DNA of 64,000 bases, taken from assembly GCA_963665325.3 (NCBI GenBank), contig CAXXWS020000003.1, positions 224,001-288,000 of the forward strand, in the 5' to 3' direction. This DNA is from Alphaproteobacteria bacterium. GTDB taxonomy: Bacteria > Pseudomonadota > Alphaproteobacteria > Bin95. The notes beneath the pieces were generated by a model. The model worked only from the letters and a program-made list of their open reading frames with translations. It was not told the DNA's origin and ran no database searches. Within the stretch, counting starts at the first letter, position 1. The number at the start of each line of letters is the position of its first letter. A program made the translations under genes and the position numbers. Positions 9,201-61,167 of this stretch are shown one piece after another.

Positions 9201-9438
9201 GTATCCCGTTCCAATTCTTGATATTTGTCTGAATGATCGTCGACATTGTTTAGATCTAGCGGGGCGGAAAGTAAAGAACAATCGGGCTTTAGGGAGCGAG
9301 CGATGGCGCGAAGCAGTACTTTGGTGACGAATGCGGGGCCGCGGCTGCCGTACAAAAAGTGAAATGCGGATTGATAAGAATTATCCCGGTTTTGCGAGAT
9401 AAGTTGATCAAACTCGGAAAGAGAGGAGGAGGATTCTA

Positions 9439-10275
9439 GGTCGTGTACCCATAAGGTGTTTCGTGATTTTCGAAGATGTGATTCAAGCTCCCAACCTCAG
9501 GGAGCTTGGAGATGGGCCGCTACGATCTGACGGACTTCGAATGGCGTGTGATTGAGCCGCTGCTGCCGAACAAGCCCCGCGGCGTCCCTCGGGTGGACGA
9601 TCGCCGAGTGTTGAACGGCATTCTGTGGGTGCTTCGCACGGGGGCGCCGTGGCGTGACCTCCCGGAGCGCTACGGGCCTTATACGACCTGCTACAACCGG
9701 TTCAACCGCTGGCGCAAGAAGGGCGTCTGGGATCAGTTGATGGATGCGGTGGTGGAGGCTTACGACAGCAACGTGCAGATGATCGACAGTTCGAGCGTCC
9801 GGGTTCACCAGCACGCGGCGGGTGCAAAAAGGGGGGTCCGGATCGTTGCATGGGTCGTTCCCGTGGTGGACTGACCACGAAGATCCACGCCGTGGCGGAC
9901 GTTACCGGTCTGCCGATCCGCTACGACCTCAGCCCCGGCCAGGCACACGACAGCACGACCGCCGGCGCCATGCTGGCGAACCTGCCGCCCGACAGTTTCC
10001 TGATCGCCGACAAGGCCTATGACGCCAAATGGATCCGTGAGCTGATCGAGCAACGCGATGCCGTCGCGATCATCCCCGACCGAGAAGGCGCGAAGACCAG
10101 GCACGCCTTCAGCAAACTGTTGTATCGATTGCGAAATCGTATCGAACGCGCCTTCAACAAGCTCAAGCAGTTCCGCCGCATCGCCACCCGCTACGAAAAG
10201 CTCGCGGCCAACTTCCTGGCCATGATCAAGATCGCAACTATCAGACTCTGGCTACGTGCTTATGAGTCCACGACC
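9439..10275 (+). mobile_element. IS5-family (IS427-like) insertion sequence, 837 bp
   Basis: 17-bp terminal IRs GGTCGTGTACCCATAAG / GGTCGTGGACTCATAAG (2 mismatches); TA duplication at 9437-38 and 10276-77 within a CTAG target. Confidence 0.93.
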
Positions 10276-10278
10276 TAG
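9512..10278 (+). CDS. tnp: IS5-family DDE transposase, orfA/orfB joined by a probable -1 frameshift
   Basis: orfA LTDFEW..WRDLPERYGP; orfB GRSRGGLTTKIH..ADKAYD..RNRIERAFNKLKQFRRIATRYEK; slippery AAAAAGGGGGG at 9826-9836; stop TAG supplied by the target site. Confidence 0.9.
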
Positions 10279-43565: not shown

Positions 43566-43651
43566 GGTTTCCCCTCGCGAATCCGGACTGCTATACTGTG
43601 CGGCTACCGTAAAGACAGCCGCGCGACACCATAGCCGCTCCGGGAGCGACG

Positions 43652-44785
43652 ATGAAGCTCACCATCGAACGCAGCCAGTTCCTGAAATCGCTCAGCCATG
43701 CGCAGAGCGTGGTCGAACGGGCCAACACCATCCCGATCCTGGGCAATGTCATGCTGGAGGCGGCGGACGGGCGGCTGCGCCTTTCGGCGACCGACCTGGA
43801 GCTGGGCGCCGTCGAGACGGTGGATGCCGATGCGGTCTCGGGCGGCGGCACGACATTGCCGGCGCAGGTGCTCTACGACATCGCCCGCAAGCTGCCCGAC
43901 GGCGCGCAGGTGGAACTGGAGACCGAAGACGGCTCGGACCGTATCCGACTGCGCTGCGGGCGGTCCACCTTCACCTTGTCCGCCCTGCCGCCGGAAGAGT
44001 TCCCGGCGCTCTCCAAGACCGAATTCGCCTGCCGCTTCCAGCTCACCGATAAGGAACTACGCGGCCTGATCGACCGGACCGGCTTCGCTGCCTCGACCGA
44101 GGAGACGCGCTACTACCTGAACGGCATCTACCTCCACACCACCGAGCATGAGGGCGTGCCGGTGCTGCGCGCGGTCGCGACCGACGGCCACCGGCTGGCG
44201 CGCGTCGAGGTGCCGAGGCCGGCCGGCGCGGAGGACATGCCGGGCGGCGTGATCGTGCCGCGCAAGGCGGTCCAGGAGCTCCGCAAGCTGCTAGGAGACG
44301 GGGAAACTGGGAAGGATCTTTCTGTTAATATCTCAGTCTCGGAAACTGGGATTAAGTTTGTTATCGAAAGCGTTGAGCTTACCTCCAAGCTGATTGACGG
44401 CACCTATCCCGACTATGAGCGGGTGATCCCGGTCGGCAACGACAAGCGGCTCGAAGTCGAAAGCGGCATGCTGGCCGAGGCGGTGGACCGGGTCGCGGCG
44501 ATCTCCTCCGAACGCACCCGTGCGATCAAGCTCGCCATCGACGGCGACAGTGTGCAGCTCTCCGCCGCCGACCCGACCTACGGCATGGCGACCGAGGAAA
44601 TCGACGTACGGTTCGACGGGCCGCCGATGGAGATCGGCTTCAACGCGCGCTACCTGCTTGAAATCCTGCGCCGCATCGACGGCGGCACGGCGGCGCTCGA
44701 GCTCGCCGACCCGGCTGCGCCCACGCTGGTGCGCGACATGGCGGACCCGAGCGCGCTCTATGTGCTGATGCCGATGCGCGTCTGA
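43652..44785 (+). CDS. dnaN: DNA polymerase III beta clamp
   Basis: ATDLE, ETRYYLNG, ATDGHRL, GFNARY, VLMPMRV. Confidence 0.97.
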   Translation: MKLTIERSQFLKSLSHAQSVVERANTIPILGNVMLEAADGRLRLSATDLELGAVETVDADAVSGGGTTLPAQVLYDIARKLPDGAQVELETEDGSDRIRLRCGRSTFTLSALPPEEFPALSKTEFACRFQLTDKELRGLIDRTGFAASTEETRYYLNGIYLHTTEHEGVPVLRAVATDGHRLARVEVPRPAGAEDMPGGVIVPRKAVQELRKLLGDGETGKDLSVNISVSETGIKFVIESVELTSKLIDGTYPDYERVIPVGNDKRLEVESGMLAEAVDRVAAISSERTRAIKLAIDGDSVQLSAADPTYGMATEEIDVRFDGPPMEIGFNARYLLEILRRIDGGTAALELADPAAPTLVRDMADPSALYVLMPMRV

Positions 44786-44788
44786 TCC

Positions 44789-48363
<3,575 letters not shown>

Positions 48364-48847: not shown

Positions 48848-49071
48848 ACTAAGTGGCGTTCCAGAAAGCATTTTCTAATTTCTGCTTTCCGCAAGTTTAA
48901 CTCTGAAGCCTGACGCCTGAATGGCACTTGTACCATTCATCAAGGCTTATTCTAGTTCCGCGGACGACTATCCTTCATTTTCCGAACGCCCTTGACGCGC
49001 AGGCGCCTGCCGGGGCAGTTTCGACACCCTGCGAACACCGCCCATAGCGCCCCGGGGAGGGCACCCGTCCC

Positions 49072-50187
49072 ATGCATGTCGGCCTGAGCTGCTTTTTCCA
49101 GAATCCGGACAAGAAACTGACCGACCGGGAGGTCTGGCAGCAGGAGGTGGCGCTTGCGGACGCGGCGGAGCCGATGGGCTTCGACAGCATCTGGTCGGCC
49201 GAGCACCATTTCACCGACTACACCATGTGCCCGAGCGTGACCCAGTTCCTGACCTACATGGCCGGGCGGACGACGCGCGCCGGCCTCGGCACCATGGTTG
49301 TCGTGCTGCCCTGGCACGAGCCGGTCCGGGTCGCCGAAGAGCTTGCGCTGCTCGACCACCTGTCGAACGGGCGGGTGATCTTCGGCATGGGGCGCGGCCT
49401 CGGACGGGTCGAGTTCAACGGCTTCCGCCTCGAAATGGGCGAGAGCCGCGAGCGCTTCGTCGAATATGCCGAGGCCGTGATGGGCGCGCTGGAGACCGGC
49501 ACCATCGAGAGCGACGGCAAGCATCTCCGCCAGCCGCCGACGGACATCCGCCCGCAGCCCTTCAAGTCCTTCCGCGGGCGCACCTACGCCGCCTCCGTCT
49601 CGCCGCAGTCGGCGGAGATCATGGCGCGCCTCGGCATCGGCATCCTCATCATCGCCCAGAAGCCCTGGGAGAAGACGCTGGAGGAGCTGGAGAACTATCG
49701 CGAGCTCTACCGCCGGCACAATGGCGGCGAGGAAGCGCCGAAGCCCATCATCGCCAGCTTCGTCGCGGTGCATGAGGACCGCGAGAAGGCGCGCGAGATG
49801 TACGAGAACTACATCGTCGGCTACTGCCGCTCGGCGCTCAAGCACTACGAGTTCCACAATGAGGGCCTGGCCGACATTCCGGGCTACGAATATTACGGCG
49901 CGCTCGCCCGCAACATCCACAAGCACGGCATCGACACCTTCGTGCGCTTCCTCGCCGACCTCCAGGTCTGGGGCACGCCGGACGAGGTGGTCGAAGGCGT
50001 GCTCGCCAATGTCGAGCGGGCCGGCTGCGGCGGCTTCCTCGCGGCGCTCTCCTATGGCGGCATGCCCTACGACATCGCGCGCGAGAACCAGCGCCTCTTC
50101 GCCGAGAAGGTGCTCCCCCGCCTCAAGGCGCACGACACCGGCGTCGAGATCGGCGCCGCCCCGCCGCTGGCAGCGGCTGCCGAATAG
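49072..50187 (+). CDS. LLM-class flavin-dependent oxidoreductase
   Basis: [25 protein letters not shown]. Confidence 0.9.
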
Positions 50188-50199
50188 GCCGGGCTCGAC

Positions 50200-50508
50200 G
50201 TGGGCACCTGCGAAGCCCTGCCGAATGCCGATTGTCCGGGCGCGAACCTTGAGGATGCGAACCTCGAGGACGCCAATCTGGAAGATGCGAATCTGAGGGG
50301 CGCCAACCTGAAACGGGCGAACCTGAAGGCGGCGAATTTAGCGGGAGCGAACCTTGAGAAAGCCGACCTGGCGGACGCGAACCTGGAGGACGCGAACCTG
50401 CAGGGCGCGAACCTGAAGGACGCCAATCTCTCGGGAGCCTCGCTTGTCGACGCCAATCTTGCCGGTGCCAACCTGTCGGGTGCGAGGCTTTCGGGCCGAA
50501 CCGGCTGA
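50200..50508 (+). CDS. Pentapeptide-repeat protein, possibly 5'-truncated
   Basis: About 17 A(N/D)Lxx repeats; no clear RBS or signal peptide. Confidence 0.7.
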
Positions 50509-50521
50509 GGGCGGCGCGACT

Positions 50522-51694
50522 ATGCTTGCGGAGGATTTCGGGCTCGGCGAGGAACAGCGGCTGCTTCGTGACATGGTGCGCGCGTTTGCCCGCGGGAGGG
50601 TGGCGCCGCGCGCGGCGGAGATCGACCGGGAGGCCGCCTATCCGCACGACATGTTCGCGGCGCTGCGCGACCTCGGCCTCTTCGCGCTGCCCTTCCCGGA
50701 GCGCTACGGAGGCACGGACAGCGTGCTCTCCGGCTGCCTCGCCATCGAGGAGCTGGGCCGTGTCTGCTACAACACCGCCTACCTGCTGCTGGTGCAGTGG
50801 ACGCCCTTCGCGGCCGTGCTGGCGGGCGGCTCGCCGGAGCAGCATGAGCGCTGGCTGCCGGGCCTCGCCAGCGGCGAGTTGAAGGCCGCCATTTCCGTCA
50901 CCGAGCCGCAATCCGGCTCCGACGCCGCCGGCATTACGACGCGCGCGACCCGAACGGAGGGCGGCTACCGGATCGACGGGGCCAAGGTCTGGTGCACCAA
51001 CAGCCCGGAAGCCGATTTCATCGTCGTGGCCGCCAAGACGGATCCCTCGGCAAGGCATCGCGGCATTTCCATGTTCGCGGTGGAGAAGGGAACGCCCGGC
51101 CTCACCGTCGGCGCGCCGGAGCGCAAGCTCGGCTCGCGCGGCATCCCCTCCTGCCCGCTCTTCTTCGACGGCGCCTTCGTGCCGGAGGAGAACCGGATCG
51201 GGCCGGAGGGCGAGGGGTGGCTCACGGTGATGGAGGCCTTCAACCGCTCGCGCCCGATGATCGGCGCACGCGGCGTCGGCCTGGCTCAGGGCGCGCTCGA
51301 CCTCGCGGCGGATTTCGTGCGCGGCCGCCGGGCCTTCGGTGAGCGGGTCGCCGACTTCCAGGGCGTGCGCTGGATGCTGGCGGACATGACCATGCGCACC
51401 GAGGCCGCCCGCCAGATGGTCTACAAGGCGGCCGCGCTCGCGGACGCGGGCGTTTCGGGCCGCGCGCTCGCGCCCTGGGCGGCGATGGCGAAATGCATGG
51501 CCACCGACGCTGCCATGTCGGTCGCGACCGATGCGGTGCAGCTCTGGGGCTCCGCCGGCATTTCGGCCGACAATCCCGTCGAGCGCTTCTTCCGCGACGC
51601 CAAGGTGCTCCAGATCGTCGAGGGCACCAACCAGATCCAGCGCAACATAATCGGCCGCCACGCCGTCGAGACGCTGGGCGCGGGGTCCGCCTGA
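50522..51694 (+). CDS. Acyl-CoA dehydrogenase
   Basis: TEPQSGSD, GAKVWCTN, RDAKVLQIVEGTNQIQR. Confidence 0.92.
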   Translation: MLAEDFGLGEEQRLLRDMVRAFARGRVAPRAAEIDREAAYPHDMFAALRDLGLFALPFPERYGGTDSVLSGCLAIEELGRVCYNTAYLLLVQWTPFAAVLAGGSPEQHERWLPGLASGELKAAISVTEPQSGSDAAGITTRATRTEGGYRIDGAKVWCTNSPEADFIVVAAKTDPSARHRGISMFAVEKGTPGLTVGAPERKLGSRGIPSCPLFFDGAFVPEENRIGPEGEGWLTVMEAFNRSRPMIGARGVGLAQGALDLAADFVRGRRAFGERVADFQGVRWMLADMTMRTEAARQMVYKAAALADAGVSGRALAPWAAMAKCMATDAAMSVATDAVQLWGSAGISADNPVERFFRDAKVLQIVEGTNQIQRNIIGRHAVETLGAGSA

Positions 51695-51746
51695 TACCAG
51701 CGGTCTCGGTGCAAGACTCTTGGCGGCTATCCGGAGGCCCCACATT

Positions 51747-51847
51747 GTCGCCCCGGCCTTGAGCCGGGGCCCAGCCTTGCCGGCTCAGCCCTCAGACGCC
51801 TCGACAGGCTGGGCCCCGGATCGCCGCTCCGCGCCGTCCAGGGTGAC
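51747..51847. repeat. REP/RIME-like palindromic extragenic element
   Basis: Terminal IR GTCGCCCCGG / CCAGGGTGAC; hairpin GCCCCGGC-CTTGA-GCCGGGGC; inner IR GGGCCCAGC / GCTGGGCCC. Confidence 0.6.
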
Positions 51848-52033
51848 GAGAGGGGACCGGTCCTGCCGGCCGGCAACGCATGCCCCGGCTCCGCCTGACT
51901 GCCGTGGAACCCGGTCTCCGTCATCGGTTCCCGCCAATGACCGCCGGTATGACGCACGGTTCCTGTTGACAGCGCAGCAGGCGGCGGGCTGGAGTCCCGG
52001 CTGTGCGCAAAGGCGGCGCCGGTGGAGAGTGCC

Positions 52034-54256
52034 ATGCTGTTTCACCACGCATCGAAGAACCGGCCGTTCCATCTCGGCACCTATCCGATGGAGGTGCTGC
52101 CGCGCGACGGGGCGGTGATTGCAGCAGAAGCGGCCCGCCCCCGGGCCGGGCCAACGGACGCCGCTGTGGCAGGCGGGGCGCTCGGGCCTGCCGTGCTCCA
52201 CTACCGGGACCTGTTCGCACGGTTCGCGGAAGGCGGGCCGGCGGAGGAAACGGCCCCCGTCCCCGCAAGGCTCGACAGGCGCGCACAGGACATCAAGGGC
52301 TGCTCCTACTTCATGGATGCTGACCAGGTCGGCATCTGCCGGATTCCGGAAAGCGCATGGCTCGAGGGCCTGCCCGCAATCGACGGGCACAGCCACGCGG
52401 TCGTCATACTGGTCGCGCTGCCCGCCGTGCCAGACCGGGACAATCCCGCCCGCGCCTGGGTCGAGGACGCCGTCGCCGCGACGGCGGAGATGCGCGTGCT
52501 GGAGATTGCCGCCTGCACCGCCGGCCATATCCGCCAGATGGGCTTCGAGGCCCGTATCCACCATCCCGGCAACGAAAGCCTCGACCGCGAGCGGCTCGCC
52601 GTTCTGTCCGGACTCTGCCTGCGCGCGGAGGGCGGCGGGCTGCTCAACCCCTATATCGAGGGCGGTTTCGCGCTCGCTGCGATCTCGACCAACTACGAAC
52701 TGGAATGCGACAGCCCGCTCGGCTCCGGCGCCGCCCATGCGCGCAACCGGGCCTGGCGCAAGGGCATCGCCGGCGCCGTCTCCGGCCGCGAACGCGCGCG
52801 CCGCGCCCGGCGGAAGTCGCACCAAAGCCGCTACCCGATGGAGCAGGTCCGGCGCGTGGACCGGCCCACCACCCTCATCATCGACGAAGAGGTGCCGCGC
52901 GTGCCGCAGCGCGCCGCCTTCTTCACGCGGGCAGCCAAGGGCGATCTCGGCGAGAAGTCGCGGCGCGAGCGCGCCCGCTTCGCCTTCAAGCACCCGCTCT
53001 CCTTCAGCCAGCTCCAGCTCATCCGCGCCATGGTGCCCCACCAGGACGGCGAGACCGCCGGCCCGCCGGACGGGGACCGCTATGGCGACCCGGCGGCGAA
53101 TGCGCGCGCGGTCAAGGCGCTCTCCTATTTCCTGGGCTCGGACCTGACGGGCATTTGCGAGATCCCGCGCTATGCCTGGTTCTCGCACCGGGAGGACGGC
53201 AGCCCCATCGAGATGAACCACCGCTATGCCGTCGTCATGCTGATCGACCAGGGCTACGACACCATGGAAGGGGCGAGCGGCGACGACTGGATTTCCGGCG
53301 CCCAGTCCATGCGCGGCTATCTGCGCGGCGCGGAGATCGCCGGCATCATGGGCGAGACGCTCCGGGGCCTGGGCTTCCCCTCCCGCGCCCAGACCAATGC
53401 GGACAGCGACGTGCTCCACATTCCGCTGCTGCTATGGGCGGGGCTCGGCGAGCTCAGCCGCATCGGCGAACTGGTGCTCAACCCCTTTGTCGGCCCGCGT
53501 TTCAAGTCCGTGGTGCTCACCACCGACATGCCGATGGAGGTGGACCGGCCCATAGACTTCGGCCTCCAGTATTTCTGCGACCATTGCCACAAATGCGACC
53601 GCGAATGCCCCTGCGACGCCATTCCGCACGGGCCCAAGGTGATGTTCAACGGCTACGAGATATGGAAGCCCGATGTCGAGCGCTGCACCCGCTACCGGCT
53701 CACCAACATGCGCGGCTCGGCCTGCGGGCGCTGCATGAAGACCTGCCCGCTCAACAAGGTGGTGGACATGGACGGCGGCCTGCTGCCGCGCGCGGCAAGC
53801 TGGCTCGGCGTCAATGCGATGTTCCTGAAGCCGGCGCTGGTGCCGGTCGCGACATGGCTCGACGACAGGCTCGGCAACGGCCGGCGCAACCCCGTGAAGA
53901 AATGGTGGTTCGACCACGAGATCGTGGACGGCGTGACGGTCGCCGCGAAAGGCGCCAACGAGCGCGAGATCGACCCGGGCAAGACGGTCGATGCGGCGCG
54001 CCAGAAGATCGCCTACTACCACGCCGACGCGATGCCCCCGCCCGACCGGCAGACGCCCCTGCCCGTGGACCGCAAGGCGGCGCTGGCCGCGGCGGCACTG
54101 GTCGAAACGCCGGCGGAGGCGCGCAAGCGCCTCGCGGCAGGCGGCGCCGCGCCGGCGCACTATGTTCCGACGCCTCCTGCGGACGGCGAAGGTGAGGACG
54201 CTGATGGCGGCGAGGGCGGACGGCCTGCCGCCAGCCCCTACGGGAAGGGCGGGTAA
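52034..54256 (+). CDS. rdhA: Catabolic-type (non-respiratory) B12-dependent reductive dehalogenase
   Basis: AGLGELSRIG..NPFVGPRFK; CDHCHKCDRECP; CGRCMKTCP; KKWW; degenerate duplicate N-terminal domain; no Tat signal. Confidence 0.88.
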   Translation: MLFHHASKNRPFHLGTYPMEVLPRDGAVIAAEAARPRAGPTDAAVAGGALGPAVLHYRDLFARFAEGGPAEETAPVPARLDRRAQDIKGCSYFMDADQVGICRIPESAWLEGLPAIDGHSHAVVILVALPAVPDRDNPARAWVEDAVAATAEMRVLEIAACTAGHIRQMGFEARIHHPGNESLDRERLAVLSGLCLRAEGGGLLNPYIEGGFALAAISTNYELECDSPLGSGAAHARNRAWRKGIAGAVSGRERARRARRKSHQSRYPMEQVRRVDRPTTLIIDEEVPRVPQRAAFFTRAAKGDLGEKSRRERARFAFKHPLSFSQLQLIRAMVPHQDGETAGPPDGDRYGDPAANARAVKALSYFLGSDLTGICEIPRYAWFSHREDGSPIEMNHRYAVVMLIDQGYDTMEGASGDDWISGAQSMRGYLRGAEIAGIMGETLRGLGFPSRAQTNADSDVLHIPLLLWAGLGELSRIGELVLNPFVGPRFKSVVLTTDMPMEVDRPIDFGLQYFCDHCHKCDRECPCDAIPHGPKVMFNGYEIWKPDVERCTRYRLTNMRGSACGRCMKTCPLNKVVDMDGGLLPRAASWLGVNAMFLKPALVPVATWLDDRLGNGRRNPVKKWWFDHEIVDGVTVAAKGANEREIDPGKTVDAARQKIAYYHADAMPPPDRQTPLPVDRKAALAAAALVETPAEARKRLAAGGAAPAHYVPTPPADGEGEDADGGEGGRPAASPYGKGG

Positions 54257-54332
54257 CGCCGGTTTCGGCGGGCGCCGGGGTCCGCGCCGCTGACCCCGGC
54301 TGTCGGAACGCACAAGCAGGAGAGCAAGCCCA

Positions 54333-54692
54333 ATGATTGCCGTCATATTCGAAGTGGAGCCCGCCGAGGGCCAGCGGGACACCTATCTCGATATCGCTGC
54401 GGGGCTGCGTGACGAGCTGATGGAGATGGACGGCTTCATCTCCATTGAGCGGTTCGAGAGCCTGAACCGACCGGGCAAGCTGTTGTCGCTGTCGTTCTGG
54501 CGCGACGAGCAGGCGGTGCGCGCATGGCGCAGCAGGCCGCGCCACCGCGCCGCGCAGACACGCGGCCGCGGCGGGGTCTTTTCCGGCTATCGCCTGCGGG
54601 TGGCGTCGGTAGTCCGTGACTACGGGTTGGAGGAACGGGCCGAGGCTCCTTCGGATTCCCGCGACCTGCACGACCCGGCACCCATTGCCTGA
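54333..54692 (+). CDS. Antibiotic biosynthesis monooxygenase family
   Basis: MIAVIFEV, DGFISIERF, LSLSFWRDE. Confidence 0.88.
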   Translation: MIAVIFEVEPAEGQRDTYLDIAAGLRDELMEMDGFISIERFESLNRPGKLLSLSFWRDEQAVRAWRSRPRHRAAQTRGRGGVFSGYRLRVASVVRDYGLEERAEAPSDSRDLHDPAPIA

Positions 54693-54753
54693 GAATGTTT
54701 GCCGGGGTTTCGTGAAAAATTGCTGCATATTCACATTTTGTTTAATTTCGAGC

Positions 54754-55275
54754 TTGACATAAGGGAAAATAAACCGATATAAGACCTGCAGAAGGGGCAT
54801 CCGGAGCCGCTTCTCCGGCGCCGCGCGGCCGGCGGCGCCATTTTCGAAAACCCCTGAGAAACTGACGGGAGACGTGCGCCCTCTGCCTCGCGCGCGCAAT
54901 CAGGTGCGCGAACCGCGCCGGCGCCAACGCGCGCCCGCGCCCGTGTGCGAAACGCGCGCGGCAAAGGGTCCGCCGCTCCCGGACCGGCAAGGAGACAGGA
55001 ATGACCGCAACCGACCCCCGCCCCGCACTCGCGGCGATGCCAGCCCGGAGCCGCCGCCCCCGGACGAGGCGTCGTGACACCCCCGGTGAGCCGGAGGCGG
55101 TGTCCGGCTACGACGGCAGCCGGGACACGCCCGAAATCAGGGCGTGGGACGAACGGCAGAAGCGCCGCAAGGAGGCCTCCAGCGCCCGCTACCTCGAGGC
55201 CGCCGGCCGGCGCGGAACATGACAAAACATGACATTCCGCAGCCGGAACATGACAAAACATTACATTCCATGACG
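54754..55275 (+). repeat. Dispersed element, copy 2
   Basis: TTGACA-18-TATAAG; same leader blocks and same heptamer phasing as 19064-19683. Confidence 0.8.
55001..55222 (+). CDS. Possible 73-aa small ORF within element copy 2
   Basis: AAGGAG RBS; stop falls inside the first CATGACA heptamer. Confidence 0.45.
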   Translation: MTATDPRPALAAMPARSRRPRTRRRDTPGEPEAVSGYDGSRDTPEIRAWDERQKRRKEASSARYLEAAGRRGT

Positions 55276-55368
55276 TGTCGCGACGGGTCCGGCCGGCCCT
55301 CCGGTTCCGGTCCGCGAGCGGTGGTATAACGCCCGGCATGCGATACCGGCCGGGAAAGGAGTAGGCGC

Positions 55369-56157
55369 ATGCGCCCGACAGAACGCGAACAGGCGGATTT
55401 CGACCGCGACGGCGCAGTGCTGATGAAGGGGGTCGTGCCGGCCGAATGGCTGGGCGTGCTGGCGGAGGCTGTCGAGCGCGACATCGCGGAGCCGGGGCCC
55501 TATTTCAACGGATACCGGCCGGAAGCCGGGCGCTTCCACGGCAATCTGCGCATCTGGGAAACGCATGAGGGCTTCCGCGCCTTCTGCTGCGAGGGCCCGC
55601 TCCGCGAAGTGGCGGCGCGGTTCCTGGGAGCAAACCGTCTCAACCTCTTCTACGACCAGCTGTTCGTGAAGGAGCCGGGCACGCCGCAGCCGACGCGCTG
55701 GCACAACGACCAGCCCTACTGGCCCGTACGCGGCTGGCCGGTCATGTCGTTCTGGCTGCCGCTCGATCCCGTCACGCGCGAGAGCGGCGCGCTTTCCTTC
55801 GTCGCCGGCTCGCACCGCTGGGAGCGCTGGTTCCAGCCGGAGCCGTTCGCGAAGGGCGGCGCGGACTATGAGCGCGGCGAGAACTACGAGCCGATGCCGG
55901 ATATCGACGCCGGCGGCTACGACATCCTCTCCTGGGACATGGAGACCGGCGACGCGCTCGCCTTCCATGCCATGACGGTTCACGGCGCGGGCGGCAACCT
56001 GACTTCCGATACCCGCCGGCGCGGCTATGCGGTGCGCTATTGCGGCGAGGGCTGCACCTATTTCGCCGGCCCCGGTCCGAACAACGACCTGCGCAACCCG
56101 GCGCTCGCCGATGGCGCCCCGCTCGACAGCGCGCAGTTCCCCGCGGTCTGGCCGTGA
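55369..56157 (+). CDS. PhyH-family dioxygenase
   Basis: WHNDQPYW, GSHRW, HGAGGN. Confidence 0.88.
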   Translation: MRPTEREQADFDRDGAVLMKGVVPAEWLGVLAEAVERDIAEPGPYFNGYRPEAGRFHGNLRIWETHEGFRAFCCEGPLREVAARFLGANRLNLFYDQLFVKEPGTPQPTRWHNDQPYWPVRGWPVMSFWLPLDPVTRESGALSFVAGSHRWERWFQPEPFAKGGADYERGENYEPMPDIDAGGYDILSWDMETGDALAFHAMTVHGAGGNLTSDTRRRGYAVRYCGEGCTYFAGPGPNNDLRNPALADGAPLDSAQFPAVWP

Positions 56158-56267
56158 AGCCGGCCTCGTTCGCGCACCCGATTAGCAGTTGACCCTGCTG
56201 CGTTTTCTTGGCTAGCCTTACGGCAGGGCACGGATTAGCCGCGGCCCGGTCGGAGGAGGAGTATGCA

Positions 56268-58652
56268 ATGCCCGACGGTATGTCTGGACAGGAGAGGTTT
56301 GAGAACGGGAGCAGCGTGCTCAAGAATGTCGTCTGCACAAGCTGCGACGGGTTCTGCCCGGTCGCGGCCAAGGTAGAGGACGGGCGCGTGGTCAAGGTCA
56401 CGACGCGCGATCACCCGATCCTGAAGGACGTGCTCTGCATGAAGGGCGCCTATGCGCCGAAGCATTTTGCGCATCCCGACCGCATCCTCTATCCGCTGAA
56501 ACGCGTGGGCGCGCGCGGCGACGGCCAGTGGCAGCAGGTGACCTGGGACGAGGCGATGGACGACATCGCCGAGCGCCTCCAGGCGGTGATCGACCGCTAC
56601 GGGCCGGAAGCCTTCGCGGTCGGCCAGAGCGGCGCGACCGGCCTTTCCGACCACGGCCTCAGCCGGCGTTTCATGAATCATCTCGGCTCGCCCAACTGGA
56701 TCAGCGGCGTGGCCTATTGCGCCGGCAACACGGCGGCGGTGAACCGCTATGTCTATGGCTGGTTCCCGCGCGGCGACATCCTGAATTCCAAGTGCATCGT
56801 GCTGCTCGGCCACGACCCGCGCCGGCACAGCTGGACGATGGAATACAAGGCAATCCGCATGGCGCAGGCCGCGGGCGCCAAGCTCATCGTGGCCGATCCG
56901 CGCCGCAGCGGGAACGCCGAGCGCGCCGACATCTGGCTGCCGCTCCGCGCCGGCACCGACGCGGCCCTGCTGCTTGGCTGGCTCCGGGTCATCGTCGATG
57001 AGGAGCTCTACGACAAGGAGTTCGTACGCGACTGGACGGTCGGCTTCGACAAGCTGGTCGAGCGCCTCCGGGAATACCCCGTCGAGCGCGTCGCGGAGAT
57101 CACCGGCCTCACAGAAGAGCAGATCCGCGACTCGGCCCGGATGTATGCGACGACGAGTCCCGCCTGCATCCCCTGGTCGCCGATCACCGACCAGCAGGTG
57201 TCCAGCACCTCGGCGATCCGGCTGCAGGCCATGCTGCGGGCGCTCACCGGCAATGTCGATGTCAAGGGCGGCGATGTGTTCATCGGCCCGAGCCCGGTCA
57301 TGCGCTCCGACTCCGAGATCGAGATGGTGCACCTGCTGTCCGAGGAGCAGAAGGCCAAGCAGCTCGGCGCGGACCGGCACCCGGTCTTCACCTTCCGCGG
57401 CATGAAGGCCTTCGAGGACGCCACCGAGCGCGTCTGGGGCCAGCGCTACGTCAATCTCGTCAACGGCTGCTACATGGCCAACCCCATGGCGGTGTTCAAG
57501 GCCATGGAGGACAGCGACCCCTACCCGGTCAGGGCCTTCTTCATGATGGCCAACAACGCGCTGATGGCCTACGCCAACGCCGACCGGGTGTACCGGGCGA
57601 TGATGAAGCAGGACCTGCTCGTCTCCTTCGAGCACAACATGACGCCGAGCGCGCAGATCTCGGACTACATACTGCCGGGCGATTCCTGGCTGGAGCGGCC
57701 CTCCATGCAGGCCGGCATCAGCGAACAGTCGATGGAGCCGCCGGGCGAGTGCCGCAATGTCACCTATTTCTGGCACATGCTCGCCAAGCGCATGGGGCTC
57801 GGCGACGCCTTCCCCTGGACGAACCAGGAGGACTTCATCAACTACCGGCTGGAGCCAGGCGGGGCGACCTGGAACGACGTCGTCGCGAGCGGGCGGCCGC
57901 CCAACCTGCATAAAGGCCAGGCGCCCGATCCCGAGGAGAAGCAGTATCTCAGGAACGGCTTCGCCACGCCGTCCGGCAAGGTGGAGTTCTATTCCGAGGT
58001 GCTCGAAAATCTCGGCTTCGATCCGCTGCCCTATTACCGCGAGGCGGCGGAACCCTCAGAGCGCTTCCCGATGGCGTTGTTCATAGGCTGGCCCGAGGAC
58101 GAGTATTTCCGCTCCGGCCACCGCCATATCCCGGAGCTTCGCCGGCGCGCGGCGGATCCGATGTTCATGATCGCACCTGCGGACATGGAGCGGCTCGGCT
58201 TCGAGGAAGGCGCCTGGGCCCGGCTCGAGACCTCGACCGGGGCCATGGTGGCCCGCGTCTATGGGCGCTCCTCCATGCCGAAGGGCCTGGTGCGGGTGCC
58301 GCATGGCTGGTGGAAGCCGGAATCGCGGCCGGGGCTGGAGAACATGTCCGGCATGTGGGCCTTCAATGACGGGCAGGTGACGCCCGACGACGAGGAGGCG
58401 CTGATCGACCGCGAACAGGGCATCCCGCACATGAAGGGCATGCCGTGCTCGCTGGTCGCGCTGACGGCGGACGAGGTGGCGGCGCTCGAGGCCGAATTCG
58501 GCCCGACCAACGAACTGCCGCGCGGCCCGGAAGGCAAGGTGCTGCAGTCCACCTCCAAGCCCGACGATTTCATGTTCGACGACATCACCGGCGACGGCGT
58601 GGAGTTCGAGGCGATATCCCTCTCCATCTACGGCCGCACCTCGGCGATGTAA
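56268..58652 (+). CDS. Mo/W-bis-PGD enzyme, acetylene hydratase-like
   Basis: CTSCDGFC..CMKG, RRFMNHLGSPNW..YCAGNT, GFATPSGKVE; GGAGG RBS. Confidence 0.85.
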   Translation: MPDGMSGQERFENGSSVLKNVVCTSCDGFCPVAAKVEDGRVVKVTTRDHPILKDVLCMKGAYAPKHFAHPDRILYPLKRVGARGDGQWQQVTWDEAMDDIAERLQAVIDRYGPEAFAVGQSGATGLSDHGLSRRFMNHLGSPNWISGVAYCAGNTAAVNRYVYGWFPRGDILNSKCIVLLGHDPRRHSWTMEYKAIRMAQAAGAKLIVADPRRSGNAERADIWLPLRAGTDAALLLGWLRVIVDEELYDKEFVRDWTVGFDKLVERLREYPVERVAEITGLTEEQIRDSARMYATTSPACIPWSPITDQQVSSTSAIRLQAMLRALTGNVDVKGGDVFIGPSPVMRSDSEIEMVHLLSEEQKAKQLGADRHPVFTFRGMKAFEDATERVWGQRYVNLVNGCYMANPMAVFKAMEDSDPYPVRAFFMMANNALMAYANADRVYRAMMKQDLLVSFEHNMTPSAQISDYILPGDSWLERPSMQAGISEQSMEPPGECRNVTYFWHMLAKRMGLGDAFPWTNQEDFINYRLEPGGATWNDVVASGRPPNLHKGQAPDPEEKQYLRNGFATPSGKVEFYSEVLENLGFDPLPYYREAAEPSERFPMALFIGWPEDEYFRSGHRHIPELRRRAADPMFMIAPADMERLGFEEGAWARLETSTGAMVARVYGRSSMPKGLVRVPHGWWKPESRPGLENMSGMWAFNDGQVTPDDEEALIDREQGIPHMKGMPCSLVALTADEVAALEAEFGPTNELPRGPEGKVLQSTSKPDDFMFDDITGDGVEFEAISLSIYGRTSAM

Positions 58653-58661
58653 CGCAAGGCA

Positions 58662-58700
58662 CCGCCCCCTTCCCCGGCTCCGGCCGGCGGGAAGGGGCGG
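58662..58700. terminator. GC-rich hairpin after the Mo/W enzyme gene
   Basis: CCGCCCCCTTCCC..GGGAAGGGGCGG; no U-tract. Confidence 0.35.
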
Positions 58701-58739
58701 CGGTTCCACCTGCAGCGGAAATGCTGTAGGGGACGGCGC

Positions 58740-59615
58740 ATGTCTCTTCGGGGGGATGCGCCGTTGTCTTATGAGACGCTGACAGCCGGGGTCGAGGACG
58801 GCCTGCTGACGCTGACGCTCAACCGGCCGGACCGGCTGAACGCCGTCAATGCGGCCATGATCGGCGAATATATTGACGCGCTGGACGCGGCCGACCGCGA
58901 CGACGGCGTGCGCGCAGTCATCGTCACCGGCGCAGGCCGCGCCTTCTGCGCCGGCGCGGACCTCTCGGGCGGGCCGGGCACCTTCGACCGCACCGCGCCG
59001 GAGCCGGGCGCGCGCCACCGCGACGGCGGCGGCCTGGTGGCGCTCCGGCTGTTCGACATGAAGAAGCCGGTGATCGCGGCAGTGAACGGCCCGGCAGTCG
59101 GCTTCGGCGCGACCCAGATCCTGCCGATGGACATGCGCCTCGCCTCCACGGAAGCCCGTTTCGGCTTCGTCTTCTCCCGGCGCGGGGTGGTGATGGAAGC
59201 AGCGTCCTCCTGGTTCCTGCCACGCCTGGTGGGCATGCAGCGGGCGATGGAGTGGGTGGCGACGGGCCGCATCTTCTCCGCCGAGGAAGCGCTCGAAGGC
59301 GGGCTGGTGCGCTCGCTGCACGCGCCGGAGGAGCTGTTGCCGGCGGCGCGCGCGCTCGGCCGCGAGATCGCGGACAACGCCTCGCCGATGTCGGTCGCAC
59401 TCTGCCGGCAGATGATGTGGAAGATGCTGGGCGAGGACCACCCGATGGCCGCGCACCGGATCGACTCCCTCGGCATGGCCTACACCGGCGCCTCGGCGGA
59501 TGCGCGCGAGGGCGTCGCCTCCTTCCTGGAGAAGCGCCCGCCCGCCTTCGGCTCCACGCCCGGCAAGGCGATGCCGGCCTTCTACCCCTGGTGGGACGAG
59601 CCCCGCCACGGCTGA
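58740..59615 (+). CDS. Enoyl-CoA hydratase/crotonase family
   Basis: LNRPDRLNA, AFCAGADL, AAVNGPAVG. Confidence 0.9.
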   Translation: MSLRGDAPLSYETLTAGVEDGLLTLTLNRPDRLNAVNAAMIGEYIDALDAADRDDGVRAVIVTGAGRAFCAGADLSGGPGTFDRTAPEPGARHRDGGGLVALRLFDMKKPVIAAVNGPAVGFGATQILPMDMRLASTEARFGFVFSRRGVVMEAASSWFLPRLVGMQRAMEWVATGRIFSAEEALEGGLVRSLHAPEELLPAARALGREIADNASPMSVALCRQMMWKMLGEDHPMAAHRIDSLGMAYTGASADAREGVASFLEKRPPAFGSTPGKAMPAFYPWWDEPRHG

Positions 59616-59655
59616 GGTACGGGGCCCGCCCCGAATCCCGCGCCCGGAGAGCATC

Positions 59656-61167
59656 ATGGCCCGCGACCTGCCGAACATCCTGCTGATCCAGGCCGACCAG
59701 CTCAAACCGCAGGTGCTGCCCGGCTATGGCGGCCCGGCGGCGACGCCGCATATCGAGCGGCTGTGCGGGGAAGGCGTGGTGTTCGAGAACGCCTATTGCA
59801 ACTTCCCGCTCTGCGCGCCGTCGCGATTCTCGATGCTGGCCGGAATGCTGCCGTCGCGAGTGCGGGCCTTCGACAACGCCGCGGAATTCGCTGCCGCCAC
59901 GCCCACCATGGCGCACTATCTGCGGCTCGCCGGTTACCGCACGGCGCTCGCCGGCAAGCAGCATTTCGTCGGGCCGGACATGCTGCACGGCTTCCACGAA
60001 CGCCTCCTGCCGGAGCTCTATCCGACCGACTTCCACTGGACGCCGGACTGGGACGAGACCCGCATGGAGTCGAACAACGATTCGAGCGGCGTCATCAAGT
60101 CCGGCATTTGCACGCACAGCATGCAGATGGACCATGACGAGGCGGTGCTCTCCCGGGCGGCGGCGTGGCTGCTGGACGTTTCGGACCGGCAGCCCTTCTT
60201 CCTGGCGGTCTCCTTCACCCATCCCCACGAGCCCTATTTCGCGCGCCGCGAACACTGGGAGCGTTACCGCCACGAGGACATCCCGATGCCGGCGACGTCG
60301 CTGCTGCCCGAGTCCGAGCGCGACCTCCACAGCCGGCGCATGCTCGCCCATCACGGCCTGCTCGAAGGGGACATTACGGACGCGCACGTGCGGACTGCCC
60401 GCCATGCTTACCTCGCCAATTGCTCCTGGCTAGACGACATGGTCGGGACGCTGCTGAAGTCCTTGGAGGCGACCGGCGCCTCGGACAACACGGTCGTCCT
60501 CTTCACCTCGGACCATGGCGACATGCTCGGAGAGCGGGGCCTCTGGTTCAAGAAGCACTTCTTCGACCACGCGGCGCGGGTGCCGCTCATCCTCCACGCG
60601 CCCCGGCGGTTCCCCGCCGCGCGCCGGCCGGAACCCGTCTCGCTGGTGGACCTGCTGCCGACGCTTTGCGGCCTGGCGGAGATCGACCTCGCGGAACGCG
60701 CCCCCCGCCCGCCCGACGGCGCCAGCCTGTTGCCGCTCTGCGAGGGTGCGGCCGAGAGCGGGGAGAGGCCGGTATTCGCGGAGATGACTTCCGAGGGAGT
60801 GCCCTCGCCGATGTTCATGGTCCGCCACGGCCGCTTCAAGCTCATGACCGGGGGCGGCGCGCCCGACCTCCTCTTCGACCTTGAGGCCGACCCCGAAGAA
60901 CGGAACGATCTCGCCGCCGATCCGGACAGCGCGGAGTTGCTCGCCGCGCTTCGCCGCCTCACGGAAGAGACCTGGGACGCGGCGGCGCTGGAGGCGGAGG
61001 TCTGCGCCAGCCAGCGCGAGCGCCGACTGGTCCAGGCCGCGCACGGAAACGGCCCCGCGCCGGTGTGGGATGCGCTCGAAACCGATCCCGTGCGCGCGTC
61101 CTGCCTGCGCGCGCCCGACGACTACAATGACTGGGCGTGGCGCGGAATCGAGCCCTCGGCTCCCTGA
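59656..61167 (+). CDS. betC: Choline-sulfatase-like sulfatase
   Basis: CAPSR, GKQHFVGPD, SFTHPHEPY, SDHGDMLGERGLW. Confidence 0.85.
   Translation: MARDLPNILLIQADQLKPQVLPGYGGPAATPHIERLCGEGVVFENAYCNFPLCAPSRFSMLAGMLPSRVRAFDNAAEFAAATPTMAHYLRLAGYRTALAGKQHFVGPDMLHGFHERLLPELYPTDFHWTPDWDETRMESNNDSSGVIKSGICTHSMQMDHDEAVLSRAAAWLLDVSDRQPFFLAVSFTHPHEPYFARREHWERYRHEDIPMPATSLLPESERDLHSRRMLAHHGLLEGDITDAHVRTARHAYLANCSWLDDMVGTLLKSLEATGASDNTVVLFTSDHGDMLGERGLWFKKHFFDHAARVPLILHAPRRFPAARRPEPVSLVDLLPTLCGLAEIDLAERAPRPPDGASLLPLCEGAAESGERPVFAEMTSEGVPSPMFMVRHGRFKLMTGGGAPDLLFDLEADPEERNDLAADPDSAELLAALRRLTEETWDAAALEAEVCASQRERRLVQAAHGNGPAPVWDALETDPVRASCLRAPDDYNDWAWRGIEPSAP

What the first reader, a model, noticed from the sequence alone, without database searches (positions are those of the whole stretch)
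56268..58652. Acetylene-hydratase-like enzyme with catalytic Asp kept and pocket Ile changed to Ala
Seen: VVCTSCDGFC, CMK, RRFMNHLGSPNW..YCAGNT, HSW, CIPW. As I recall the Pelobacter acetylenicus enzyme, it has VVCQSCDINC (catalytic Asp13), CMK, RRFMNLLGSPNW..MCIGNT (Cys141 metal ligand, Ile142), HNW and SIPW. Inference: a non-redox hydratase with a roomier site, possibly for larger alkynes such as host polyacetylenes, or nitriles. A crotonase follows it. The natural substrates of such homologs are largely unknown.
Basis: partly seen in the sequence, partly recalled or inferred. Interest (0 to 1): 0.72.

Follow-up and report, generated by a model that had tools for sequence, protein, structure and literature searches.

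The report
Acetylene-hydratase-like enzyme, uncharacterised long clade
This gene encodes a stand-alone molybdenum/tungsten enzyme that keeps the whole catalytic core of acetylene hydratase but has a rebuilt substrate pocket and an extra tail; it belongs to a large, untested group found mostly in oxygen-breathing marine bacteria, so its substrate is unknown.

Summary
Window 56268-58652 (+) is an intact 794-aa ORF. Its best solved relative by far is Pelobacter acetylene hydratase (AH, 2e7z): E 2.6e-193, and the model superposes at TM 0.94. All the motifs quoted for both proteins are present.

It keeps the four FeS cysteines, Asp13, Lys48, Cys141 and Trp179/293/472. The three Ile of the pocket are Gly28, Ala123 and Ala152.

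The Ile-to-Ala change is not special:
- Ala stands there in 137 of 238 close homologues examined, and Ile in none.
- Bulkier Phe29 and Tyr150 flank the small residues, so a roomier site is plausible but unproven.

The gene sits in a "long" clade (about 780 aa, 60-aa C-terminal tail in 118 of 121). This clade is sister to a "short" clade (about 730 aa) that holds a second copy in the same genome.

The crotonase neighbour is conserved only within the genus. The genome carries about 40 crotonase-family matches, and a strong hairpin follows the stop codon. A shared pathway is therefore not supported.

Most likely it is a Mo-dependent, AH-type non-redox hydratase of unknown substrate. The eight notes shown for "acetylene hydratase" concern other, mostly Asp-less or multi-subunit, AH relatives.

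The parts
56252..56261 (+). Shine-Dalgarno-like run GGAGGAGGAG, 6 nt before the ATG at 56268
   Evidence: Read directly from the sequence.
56268..58652 (+). AH-like gene, 794 aa. Pfam domains: Molybdop_Fe4S4 (aa 22-66), Molybdopterin (72-497), Molydop_binding (607-683). No twin-arginine leader.
   Evidence: GC by codon position is 0.64/0.45/0.90, typical of coding sequence here. dN/dS against relatives is 0.14-0.36.
56334..56357 (+). CTSCDGFC (aa 23-30). Holds FeS ligands Cys23, Cys26 and Cys30 (AH Cys9, 12, 16), catalytic-type Asp27 (AH Asp13), Gly28 (AH Ile14) and Phe29 (AH Asn15).
   Evidence: Alignment to 2e7z; column tallies.
56436..56444 (+). CMK (aa 57-59): fourth FeS ligand Cys57 (AH Cys46) and Lys59 (AH Lys48)
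   Evidence: Lys in 121 of 121 and 117 of 117.
56634..56636 (+). Ala123, at the position of AH Ile113
   Evidence: alignment; in the long set Ala 88, Trp 16, Gly 9, Val 4, Ser 3, Pro 1; in the short set Trp 117 of 117.
56715..56723 (+). Tyr150-Cys151-Ala152: the metal-ligand Cys (AH Cys141), flanked by Tyr (AH Met140) and Ala (AH Ile142)
56832..56834 (+). Trp189 (AH Trp179)
   Evidence: 238 of 238.
57174..57176 (+). Trp303 (AH Trp293)
   Evidence: 238 of 238.
57687..57689 (+). Trp474 (AH Trp472). The loop that follows is 8 residues shorter than in AH.
   Evidence: alignment (gaps of 3 and 5 after ERPSMQA). The short-clade proteins keep the AH length here.
58470..58649 (+). C-terminal tail (aa 735-794) that Pelobacter AH lacks. 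Conserved in the long clade. Helix 734-744 is modelled with confidence; the rest has low confidence.
   Evidence: At least 35 residues align past query position 735 in 118 of 121 long-set proteins and 1 of 117 short-set proteins. Nearly invariant residues listed. Per-residue pLDDT.
58658..58707 (+). GC-rich hairpin just after the stop codon, with no T tract. Terminator-like or a repeat element.
   Evidence: RNA fold -37.6 kcal/mol, z -2.79; 1 of 200 shuffles folds as well.
55369..56157 (+). Context only: upstream PhyH-family dioxygenase. Adjacent in the genus and in L025, not elsewhere.
58740..59615 (+). Context only: downstream crotonase-family protein. Its adjacency is not conserved outside the genus.

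Best explanation
The gene encodes a cytoplasmic, single-subunit bis-MGD metallopterin / [4Fe-4S] enzyme of the acetylene-hydratase subfamily. In this aerobic marine alphaproteobacterium it most likely carries Mo rather than W.

Proposed mechanism, by analogy with AH (inferred, not shown):
- The metal, held by Cys151 and two dithiolenes, binds a water.
- Asp27, next to FeS ligand Cys26, activates or orients that water.
- Trp189, Trp303 and Trp474 wall the site.
- Water is added to a small unsaturated substrate, most likely a C-C triple bond, with no net redox change.

The three Ile that fit AH to acetylene are Gly28, Ala123 and Ala152. A loop next to Trp474 is 8 residues shorter, and a conserved 60-residue tail is added. 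I therefore think the preferred substrate is not simply acetylene but another small alkyne-type molecule, still unidentified.

The gene is its own unit and does not form a pathway with the crotonase.
For: Shown:
- Domain architecture.
- AH is the best solved relative at 647.6 bits, against 211 bits for the next.
- The AF2 model built from 104 sequences (pLDDT 90.5, pTM 0.92) superposes on 2e7z at TMt 0.94 and rmsd 2.4 A over 737 columns.
- The signature Cys9/12/16/46, Asp13, Lys48, Cys141, Trp179/293/472 is kept in the query, in all 38 aligned close relatives and in 3 of the 64 more distant cluster representatives (P0124, P0126, P0127). The other 61 lack it.
- The signature group is one clade (57 rows, SH-aLRT 100). 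The window is nested in the long clade (30 rows, SH-aLRT 99).
- In the long set Asp is kept in 115 of the 115 sequences that cover the site; Lys, Cys and the three Trp are kept in 121 of 121.
- All 44 named loci examined keep Asp, Lys, Cys and the three Trp.
- Purifying selection: dN/dS 0.14-0.36 in 5 pairs.
- The long form is kept in 13 of 16 other genomes of the genus, and 12 of those also hold the short paralog. Two functions are therefore likely.
- No neighbour family recurs in more than 8 of 37 divergent loci. A hairpin follows the stop.
- Mo supply: ModA is present (179 bits), MobA is present (200 bits) and WtpA was not found. A heme-copper oxidase is present.
- Contigs from four RNA libraries (two studies) cover 56267-58687 at 95-99% likeness. 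This shows presence in RNA libraries, not proof of transcription.

From the literature:
- Asp13 and Cys141 define the AH subfamily, whose other members are uncharacterised (PMC12096430, passages).
- An Ile-to-Ala pocket variant of AH loses most of its activity (PMC6013536, section 10).
Against: - No activity data exist for any member of the long or short clade.
- Pocket size was not measured because no coordinates were available to me. Phe29 and Tyr150 may refill the space left by Gly28 and Ala152.
- The short clade shows that Ala at position 142 can coexist with Ile14 and Trp113, so Ala alone says little.
- The FeS cluster and Lys48 are the standard electron path of redox enzymes in this family, and they are kept.
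- AH needs strong reduction and is oxygen-sensitive, which is awkward for an aerobe.
- Pelobacter AH itself could not be placed in my tree, because no tool returned its sequence.
- TupA-type tungstate uptake was not searched.
Confidence: 0.45

Rival explanations
1. It is a true acetylene hydratase of the aerobic, Mo-dependent kind: it hydrates C2H2 to acetaldehyde. The pocket is rebuilt with other residues (Phe29, Tyr150) but stays the same size.
For: - The full catalytic signature is kept.
- Bulky Phe29 (111 of 115) and Tyr150 (120 of 121) co-occur with the small Gly28 and Ala123 across the long set. This looks like compensation.
- Aerobic acetylene users exist, and their enzyme is Mo-dependent and uncharacterised (PMC7858054, passages).
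Against: - An Ile-to-Ala pocket variant of AH loses most of its activity (PMC6013536, section 10). Here all three Ile are small residues.
- The same genome, and 12 of 16 genus relatives, also keep a short-clade paralog whose pocket (Ile14, Trp113, Ala142) is closer to that of AH. Two copies with one function is less likely.
- No acetaldehyde-handling gene is linked.
Confidence: 0.25
2. It is a redox enzyme, for example a reductase or dehydroxylase acting on an organic substrate. It exchanges electrons through the FeS cluster with an unlinked ferredoxin-type partner, and the Asp acts as a general acid.
For: - FS0 and Lys48, the usual electron path, are strictly kept.
- Almost all characterised enzymes of the family are redox enzymes.
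- More distant AH relatives include a sulfur-transfer enzyme, MES (PMC9516567, abstract and section 5).
Against: - AH itself keeps FS0 and Lys48 without net redox chemistry.
- The Asp and Trp triad that marks AH is kept here and lost in the 61 more distant representatives that lack the signature.
- No FeS or flavin partner gene recurs next to it in 37 loci.
Confidence: 0.2
3. One reading: it hydrates larger alkynes of a host (polyacetylenes) or nitriles, and feeds the neighbouring crotonase in one pathway.
For: - Runs labelled sponge metagenome hold the stretch; two of these were laid.
- The crotonase is adjacent on the same strand.
- CoA enzymes lie next to the gene in two other lineages: a CoA-transferase III 4-34 nt downstream in 5 loci, and a crotonase plus acyl-CoA synthetase in L020.
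Against: - Of the 35 loci with the AH-like protein at 77% identity or less that extend past its gene, only one has a crotonase directly next to it (L020, opposite strand).
- Genus relatives have inserts between the two genes (L013, L046).
- The genome holds about 40 crotonase-family matches. A hairpin separates the genes.
- The same pocket occurs in diverse non-genus records.
- AH does not convert nitriles.
Confidence: 0.07

Closest known systems
Acetylene hydratase of Pelobacter (Syntrophotalea) acetylenicus, PDB 2e7z, EC 4.2.1.112
   Same: - Same three-domain architecture, about 730 aligned residues, and fold (TMt 0.94).
- Stand-alone and cytoplasmic.
- Keeps the four FeS Cys, Asp13, Lys48, Cys141 and Trp179/293/472.
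   Different: - Ile14, Ile113 and Ile142 become Gly, Ala and Ala. Asn15 becomes Phe and Met140 becomes Tyr.
- The loop after Trp472 is 8 residues shorter.
- About 60 extra C-terminal residues.
- The host is an aerobe with molybdate uptake.
- Activity and metal are unknown.
Short clade of AH-like proteins (about 730 aa; records named Cupriavidus necator, Paraburkholderia phytofirmans, Bradyrhizobium sp. Arg68, Trinickia mobilis, Planctomycetia; includes this genome's own paralog at G000:C1:1921358-1923475)
   Same: Same catalytic signature. It is sister to the long clade in the tree. It is 54-60% identical to the query.
   Different: Its pocket is Ile14 (106 of 117), Trp113 (117 of 117) and Ala142 (108 of 117). 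It has no C-terminal tail (1 of 117) and keeps the AH-length loop after Trp472. It is also uncharacterised.
Metallopterin-dependent ergothioneine synthase (MES, Caldithrix abyssi)
   Same: An AH-related metallopterin module with an FeS motif and a Cys metal ligand. It is a non-classical reaction in this family (PMC9516567).
   Different: MES is only 27% identical to AH, is fused to a cysteine desulfurase and occurs in anaerobes. The window protein has no such domain.
Polysulfide/thiosulfate reductase PsrA/PhsA (2vpw)
   Same: It is the next-best solved relative (211 bits) and the top NCBIfam row (PhsA 259.8 bits).
   Different: The PhsA score is far below that family's cutoff (694 bits). The window protein has no Tat leader and no PsrB/C partners, and PsrA is not an Asp/Trp-signature enzyme.

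Membership tests
Acetylene hydratase subfamily of the DMSO reductase (MopB) family | Molybdop_Fe4S4 + Molybdopterin + Molydop_binding architecture | tested here: met
   Pfam scores 27.8, 139.8 and 47.5 bits, all above their cutoffs.
Acetylene hydratase subfamily of the DMSO reductase (MopB) family | N-terminal [4Fe-4S] motif (AH Cys9, 12, 16, 46) | tested here: met
   Cys23, 26, 30 and 57 align to them.
Acetylene hydratase subfamily of the DMSO reductase (MopB) family | Cys141 as metal ligand, strictly conserved in the subfamily (PMC12096430) | tested here: met
   Cys151 aligns to it; kept in 238 of 238 homologues.
Acetylene hydratase subfamily of the DMSO reductase (MopB) family | Asp13 directly after the second FeS cysteine, specific to the subfamily (PMC12096430) | tested here: met
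   Asp27 aligns to it in an ungapped stretch. It is lost in the 61 more distant representatives that lack the signature. Three-dimensional superposition of the side chain could not be checked because I had no coordinates.
Acetylene hydratase subfamily of the DMSO reductase (MopB) family | AH is the nearest characterised relative, in sequence and in fold | tested here: met
   647.6 bits against 211 for the next. TMt 0.94 and rmsd 2.4 A, against TMt 0.79 or less for others.
Acetylene hydratase sensu stricto (EC 4.2.1.112) | Tight hydrophobic ring fitted to acetylene: Ile14, Ile113, Ile142, Trp179, Trp293, Trp472. The ring list is recalled from Seiffert 2007, which I did not read. Ile113, Ile142 and the three Trp are named near the site in PMC7970554. 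| tested here: not met
   The three Trp are kept. The three Ile are Gly28, Ala123 and Ala152.
Acetylene hydratase sensu stricto (EC 4.2.1.112) | Hydration of acetylene to acetaldehyde; tungsten-dependent; oxygen-sensitive | not testable with these tools
   Needs an enzyme assay and metal analysis. The genome has ModA and MobA, WtpA was not found, and TupA was not searched.
Acetylene hydratase sensu stricto (EC 4.2.1.112) | Single subunit, cytoplasmic, no electron-transfer partner | tested here: met
   There is no twin-arginine motif in MPDGMSGQERFENGSSVLKN. No FeS partner recurs in 37 loci.
Metallopterin-dependent ergothioneine synthase (MES) | C-terminal PLP cysteine desulfurase fused to the metallopterin module | tested here: not met
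   No such Pfam domain. The 60-residue tail matches nothing except fragments of its own family.
Respiratory Psr/Phs-type reductases | Score above the family cutoff, Tat leader, PsrB/PsrC partners | tested here: not met
   PhsA scores 259.8 bits against a cutoff of 694. No RR leader. No partner genes nearby.

The most novel reading that the evidence does not exclude
The long clade (about 780 aa, Gly-Phe / Ala / Tyr-Ala-or-Met pocket, conserved C-terminal tail) is a new, widespread, Mo-dependent hydratase of aerobic marine and soil bacteria. It acts on an alkyne or other small unsaturated metabolite larger than acetylene. It works beside a short-clade paralog that is the real aerobic acetylene hydratase. 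This would make non-redox metallopterin hydratases a family with several substrates, not a one-enzyme curiosity.
Probability: 0.3. Interest if true: 0.75.

Novelty: new variant of a known kind. Interest (0 to 1): 0.45.

Why it matters
Acetylene hydratase is the only known non-redox enzyme of the Mo/W-bisMGD family. A 2025 review states that the similar proteins of its subfamily have not been characterised (PMC12096430).

This work shows two large sister clades that keep the full AH catalytic signature. At least 1814 and 2020 database clusters scored below the E-value limits of 1e-50 and 1e-100, among the 8000 candidates scored in each search, and the two sets overlap. Most named records come from aerobic Proteobacteria. 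Both clades co-occur in one genus.

This gives concrete targets, including records from cultured strains (Cupriavidus, Paraburkholderia, Bradyrhizobium). With them one can test two things: whether acetylene use is as widespread as claimed, and whether the AH scaffold has been adapted to other substrates.

Tried and rejected
1. Getting the Pelobacter AH sequence for the tree failed.
- Two degenerate motif scans of genome contigs found 0 stretches.
- It was not among the 120 rows listed by either homologue search, nor recognisable among the 150 representatives.
- P0124, the top representative, is another AH-like protein with Ile14, Thr113 and Leu142.
- AH is therefore absent from the tree, and its position relative to the two clades is open.

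2. The first structure job, run on the single sequence, was useless (pLDDT 31.9). The second, run on alignment A2, was used instead.

3. Neighbour analysis found lineage-specific neighbours only:
- DUF3047 in 6 SAR116-type loci;
- CoA-transferase III in 5 loci;
- SDR in 8 loci at varied distances;
- PhyH next to the gene in the genus and in L025.
I do not regard these as a pathway.

4. The own paralog's surroundings hold an IS110 transposase, a LolA-like protein, an acyl-CoA synthetase and an LLM oxidoreductase. They gave no lead.

5. A protein-atlas look-up of the tail (aa 722-794) returned only fragments of the same family, with scores of 0.86.

6. RNA-library contigs left 55300-56181 and 58975-59700 without cover. 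The tool says uncovered parts prove nothing. Loose ends at 58658 and 58687 are adapter-like. I draw no transcript boundaries from this.

7. The promoter scan found one weak site inside the ORF. I ignored it.

8. The hairpin between the PhyH gene and this gene is not better than shuffles (z -0.21).

9. Papers not held, so what I say of them is recalled or second-hand:
- Seiffert 2007 (PMC1805521);
- tenBrink 2011 (PMC3067604);
- Akob 2018 (PMC7190893);
- the Bradyrhizobium I71 paper (DOI tried; search found 0).

10. Searches for a description of this clade in print found none. Supplements were not seen. Table S5 of PMC7858054 and the alignments of PMC9516567 may bear on homologue lists.
Full report
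**The gene.** Window 56268-58652 (+) is an open frame of 794 codons. GC by codon position is 0.64/0.45/0.90, like the other real genes of this 67-70% GC genome. A GGAGGAGGAG run sits 6 nt before the ATG. The N-terminus has no twin-arginine motif. Pfam finds Molybdop_Fe4S4, Molybdopterin and Molydop_binding. No NCBIfam model reaches its cutoff; the best is PhsA at 259.8 bits against 694.

**Check of the observation.**
- Against all PDB sequences, the best match is acetylene hydratase 2e7z_A: E 2.6e-193, 647.6 bits, query 19-724 on chain 2-718.
- The next is polysulfide/thiosulfate reductase 2vpw at 211 bits.
- Chain positions are residue numbers minus 3. This gives: Cys9/12/16/46 = Cys23/26/30/57; Asp13 = Asp27; Lys48 = Lys59; Cys141 = Cys151; Ile142 = Ala152; Trp179/293/472 = Trp189/303/474.
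- Further differences from AH: the loop after Trp474 is 8 residues shorter, and the chain runs about 60 residues past the AH end.

**Fold.** A single-sequence model failed (pLDDT 31.9). With a 104-sequence alignment (A2), AlphaFold2 gave pLDDT 90.5 and pTM 0.92, and only residues 750-794 were poorly defined. Foldseek ranks 2e7z first (E 4.5e-79, TMt 0.94, rmsd 2.4 A, 737 columns). All other chains have TMt 0.79 or less and rmsd 5.4 A or more. I had no coordinates, so the side-chain superposition of Asp27 on Asp13 is inferred from the ungapped alignment and was not measured.

**The family.**
- The homologue search returned 1814 clusters at E 1e-50 or better among the 8000 candidates scored. The best 120 are 58-95% identical (one truncated row reads 67% over 78% of the query) and mostly 775-800 aa.
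- A search seeded with a 716-aa Planctomycetia relative (L049, 739 bits to 2e7z) returned 2020 clusters at E 1e-100 or better. The best 120 are mostly 720-750 aa. Named records include Cupriavidus necator, Paraburkholderia phytofirmans, Trinickia mobilis and Bradyrhizobium sp. Arg68.
- The exhaustive representative search found 1763 proteins at E 1e-30 or better.
- I aligned 64 of its representatives with 40 close relatives. The full signature (four Cys, Asp, Lys, Cys, three Trp) is present in all 40 close sequences and in P0124, P0126 and P0127. It is broken in the other 61, where the Asp is mostly replaced by His, Tyr, Gln and other residues and the Trp triad is gone.
- A quick maximum-likelihood tree (65 rows, LG+G4) makes the signature group one clade (57 rows, SH-aLRT 100). 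A short clade (24 rows, 99) is sister to a long clade (30 rows, 99). The window is nested in the long clade with P0003 and P0005 (98), inside an 11-row subclade (97).
- Pelobacter AH is not in this tree. Two motif scans of the genome collection found nothing, and no search returned its sequence.

**How unusual is Ala152?** I tallied the two hit lists. These are only the best 120 rows of each search, so the tallies lean towards near relatives.

| Position (AH numbering) | Long set, n=121 (includes the query) | Short set, n=117 |
|---|---|---|
| 14 | Gly 91, Cys 9, Asn 7, Ser 5, Gln 2, Ala 1, gap 6 | Ile 106, Ala 6, Val 4 |
| 15 | Phe 111, Leu 4 | not summarised here |
| 113 | Ala 88, Trp 16, Gly 9, Val 4, Ser 3, Pro 1 | Trp 117 |
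| 140 | Tyr 120, Phe 1 | not summarised here |
| 142 | Met 88, Ala 29, Asn 2, Thr 1, Leu 1 | Ala 108, Ser 5, Met 4 |
| C-terminal tail present | 118 of 121 | 1 of 117 |

Ile at position 142 occurs in 0 of 238, and Ala in 137 of 238. The exact pocket of the window (Gly, Phe, Ala, Tyr, Ala) is found in 19 of 121 of the long set. Among named loci it occurs in the window's genus and in Thalassobaculaceae, Ca. Entotheonella, Burkholderiales, Betaproteobacteria and Rhodospirillaceae records.

**Genomic context.**
- All genes from 49048 to 61167 lie on the + strand. In order they are: an LLM monooxygenase; an acyl-CoA dehydrogenase; an NpRdhA-type reductive dehalogenase; an ABM protein; a PhyH dioxygenase; the AH-like gene; a crotonase; a choline sulfatase.
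- The PhyH / AH-like / crotonase order is kept in 10 of the 11 full-length loci with the AH-like protein at 86% identity or more. L054, a locus that holds only the gene's 3' end, also has the crotonase.
- L012 and L016 have inserts between PhyH and the gene. L013 and L046 have inserts between the gene and the crotonase.
- Of the 35 loci at 77% identity or less that extend past the AH-like gene, only one has a crotonase directly next to it (L020, opposite strand).
- All-against-all clustering of ORFs from 37 divergent loci found no neighbour family in more than 8 loci. The recurrent neighbours are lineage-specific.
- The genome holds about 40 crotonase-family matches.
- A GC-rich hairpin (-37.6 kcal/mol, z -2.79) follows the stop codon.
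- I conclude that the gene is a stand-alone unit, as AH is, and that the crotonase gives no evidence about function.

**Distribution and selection.**
- The genome also carries a short-clade paralog (55% identity; Ile14, Trp113, Ala142; 684 bits to 2e7z) next to an IS110 transposase.
- Among 16 other genomes of the genus, 13 hold the long form (86-97% identity). Of those 13, 12 also hold the short form. One genome holds only the short form, and two hold neither.
- None of 14 genomes from other genera of the family or class has a match at E 1e-100 or better.
- dN/dS against five relatives is 0.14-0.36.
- Two conserved paralogs argue for two functions.

**Physiology.** The genome has ModA (179 bits), MobA (200 bits) and a heme-copper oxidase (550 bits). 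WtpA was not found, and TupA was not searched. Molybdenum is therefore the likelier metal; this is an inference.

**Occurrence in sequencing runs.** Twenty runs from 10 studies hold the stretch or part of it, among them runs labelled sponge metagenome. Contigs from four RNA libraries (two studies; two pairs look like the same data filed twice) cover 56267-58687 at 95-99% likeness. This shows that a close relative is present in RNA libraries. The tool warns that this does not prove transcription.

**Literature.**
- A 2025 review says AH forms a subfamily with similar, uncharacterised proteins, with Cys141 strictly and Asp13 highly conserved. D13A kills the enzyme and D13E does not (PMC12096430, passages).
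- A 2018 review reports, after tenBrink 2011, that an Ile-to-Ala pocket variant lost most of its activity. [quoted passage not shown]
- PMC7970554 names Trp179/293/472, Ile113 and Ile142 around the site (passages).
- PMC7858054 states that no AH of an aerobe has been characterised, and that the Rhodococcus enzyme is Mo-dependent (passages).
- MES, the only other characterised AH relative I found, is 27% identical to AH and fused to a desulfurase (PMC9516567, abstract and section 5).

**Verdict.** This is a genuine member of the AH subfamily with an intact AH-type catalytic core, but not an acetylene hydratase in the strict sense by the pocket criterion. My best reading (0.45) is a Mo-dependent, non-redox hydratase of an unidentified small alkyne-type substrate. 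The rivals are a true aerobic acetylene hydratase (0.25), a redox enzyme (0.2) and the host-polyacetylene/crotonase pathway (0.07).

Noticed in passing
window 52022-54256 (+): A 744-aa protein with no Pfam hit. It matches the oxygen-tolerant catabolic reductive dehalogenase NpRdhA (4ras) at E 6.3e-195 and carries two ferredoxin-type Cys motifs. TIGR02486 scores 154.3 bits, just under its cutoff of 160.35. It is kept in genus relatives L011, L013 and L014 at 90-91% identity.
   Followed up: partly
window 6482-9355 (-) and 9850-10278 (+): A low-GC island (54% against about 68%) holds a 957-aa SIR2 + NACHT/NB-ARC + TPR protein, which looks like a STAND-type anti-phage defence gene. A DDE transposase fragment lies next to it.
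   Followed up: partly
G000:C1:1921358-1923475 (-), locus L002/L084: A second AH-like gene of the short clade (55% identity; Ile14, Trp113, Ala142; no tail) lies next to an IS110 transposase. It co-occurs with the long form in 12 of 16 genus relatives.
   Followed up: partly
L032, L034, L035, L036, L052 (4-34 nt after the AH-like gene): In five pelagic Rhodospirillaceae/Alphaproteobacteria loci, a family III CoA-transferase starts 4-34 nt after the AH-like stop on the same strand. In six SAR116-type loci, a DUF3047 protein takes that place.
   Followed up: partly
window 43613-48363 (+): dnaN and gyrB lie here, so the window is in the replication-origin region of its contig.
   Followed up: no
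window 59500-61167 (+): A sulfatase passes the choline-sulfatase equivalog TIGR03417 (558.9 bits against a cutoff of 433.45). Its listed ORF overlaps the crotonase by 115 nt, so the true start is probably later.
   Followed up: no
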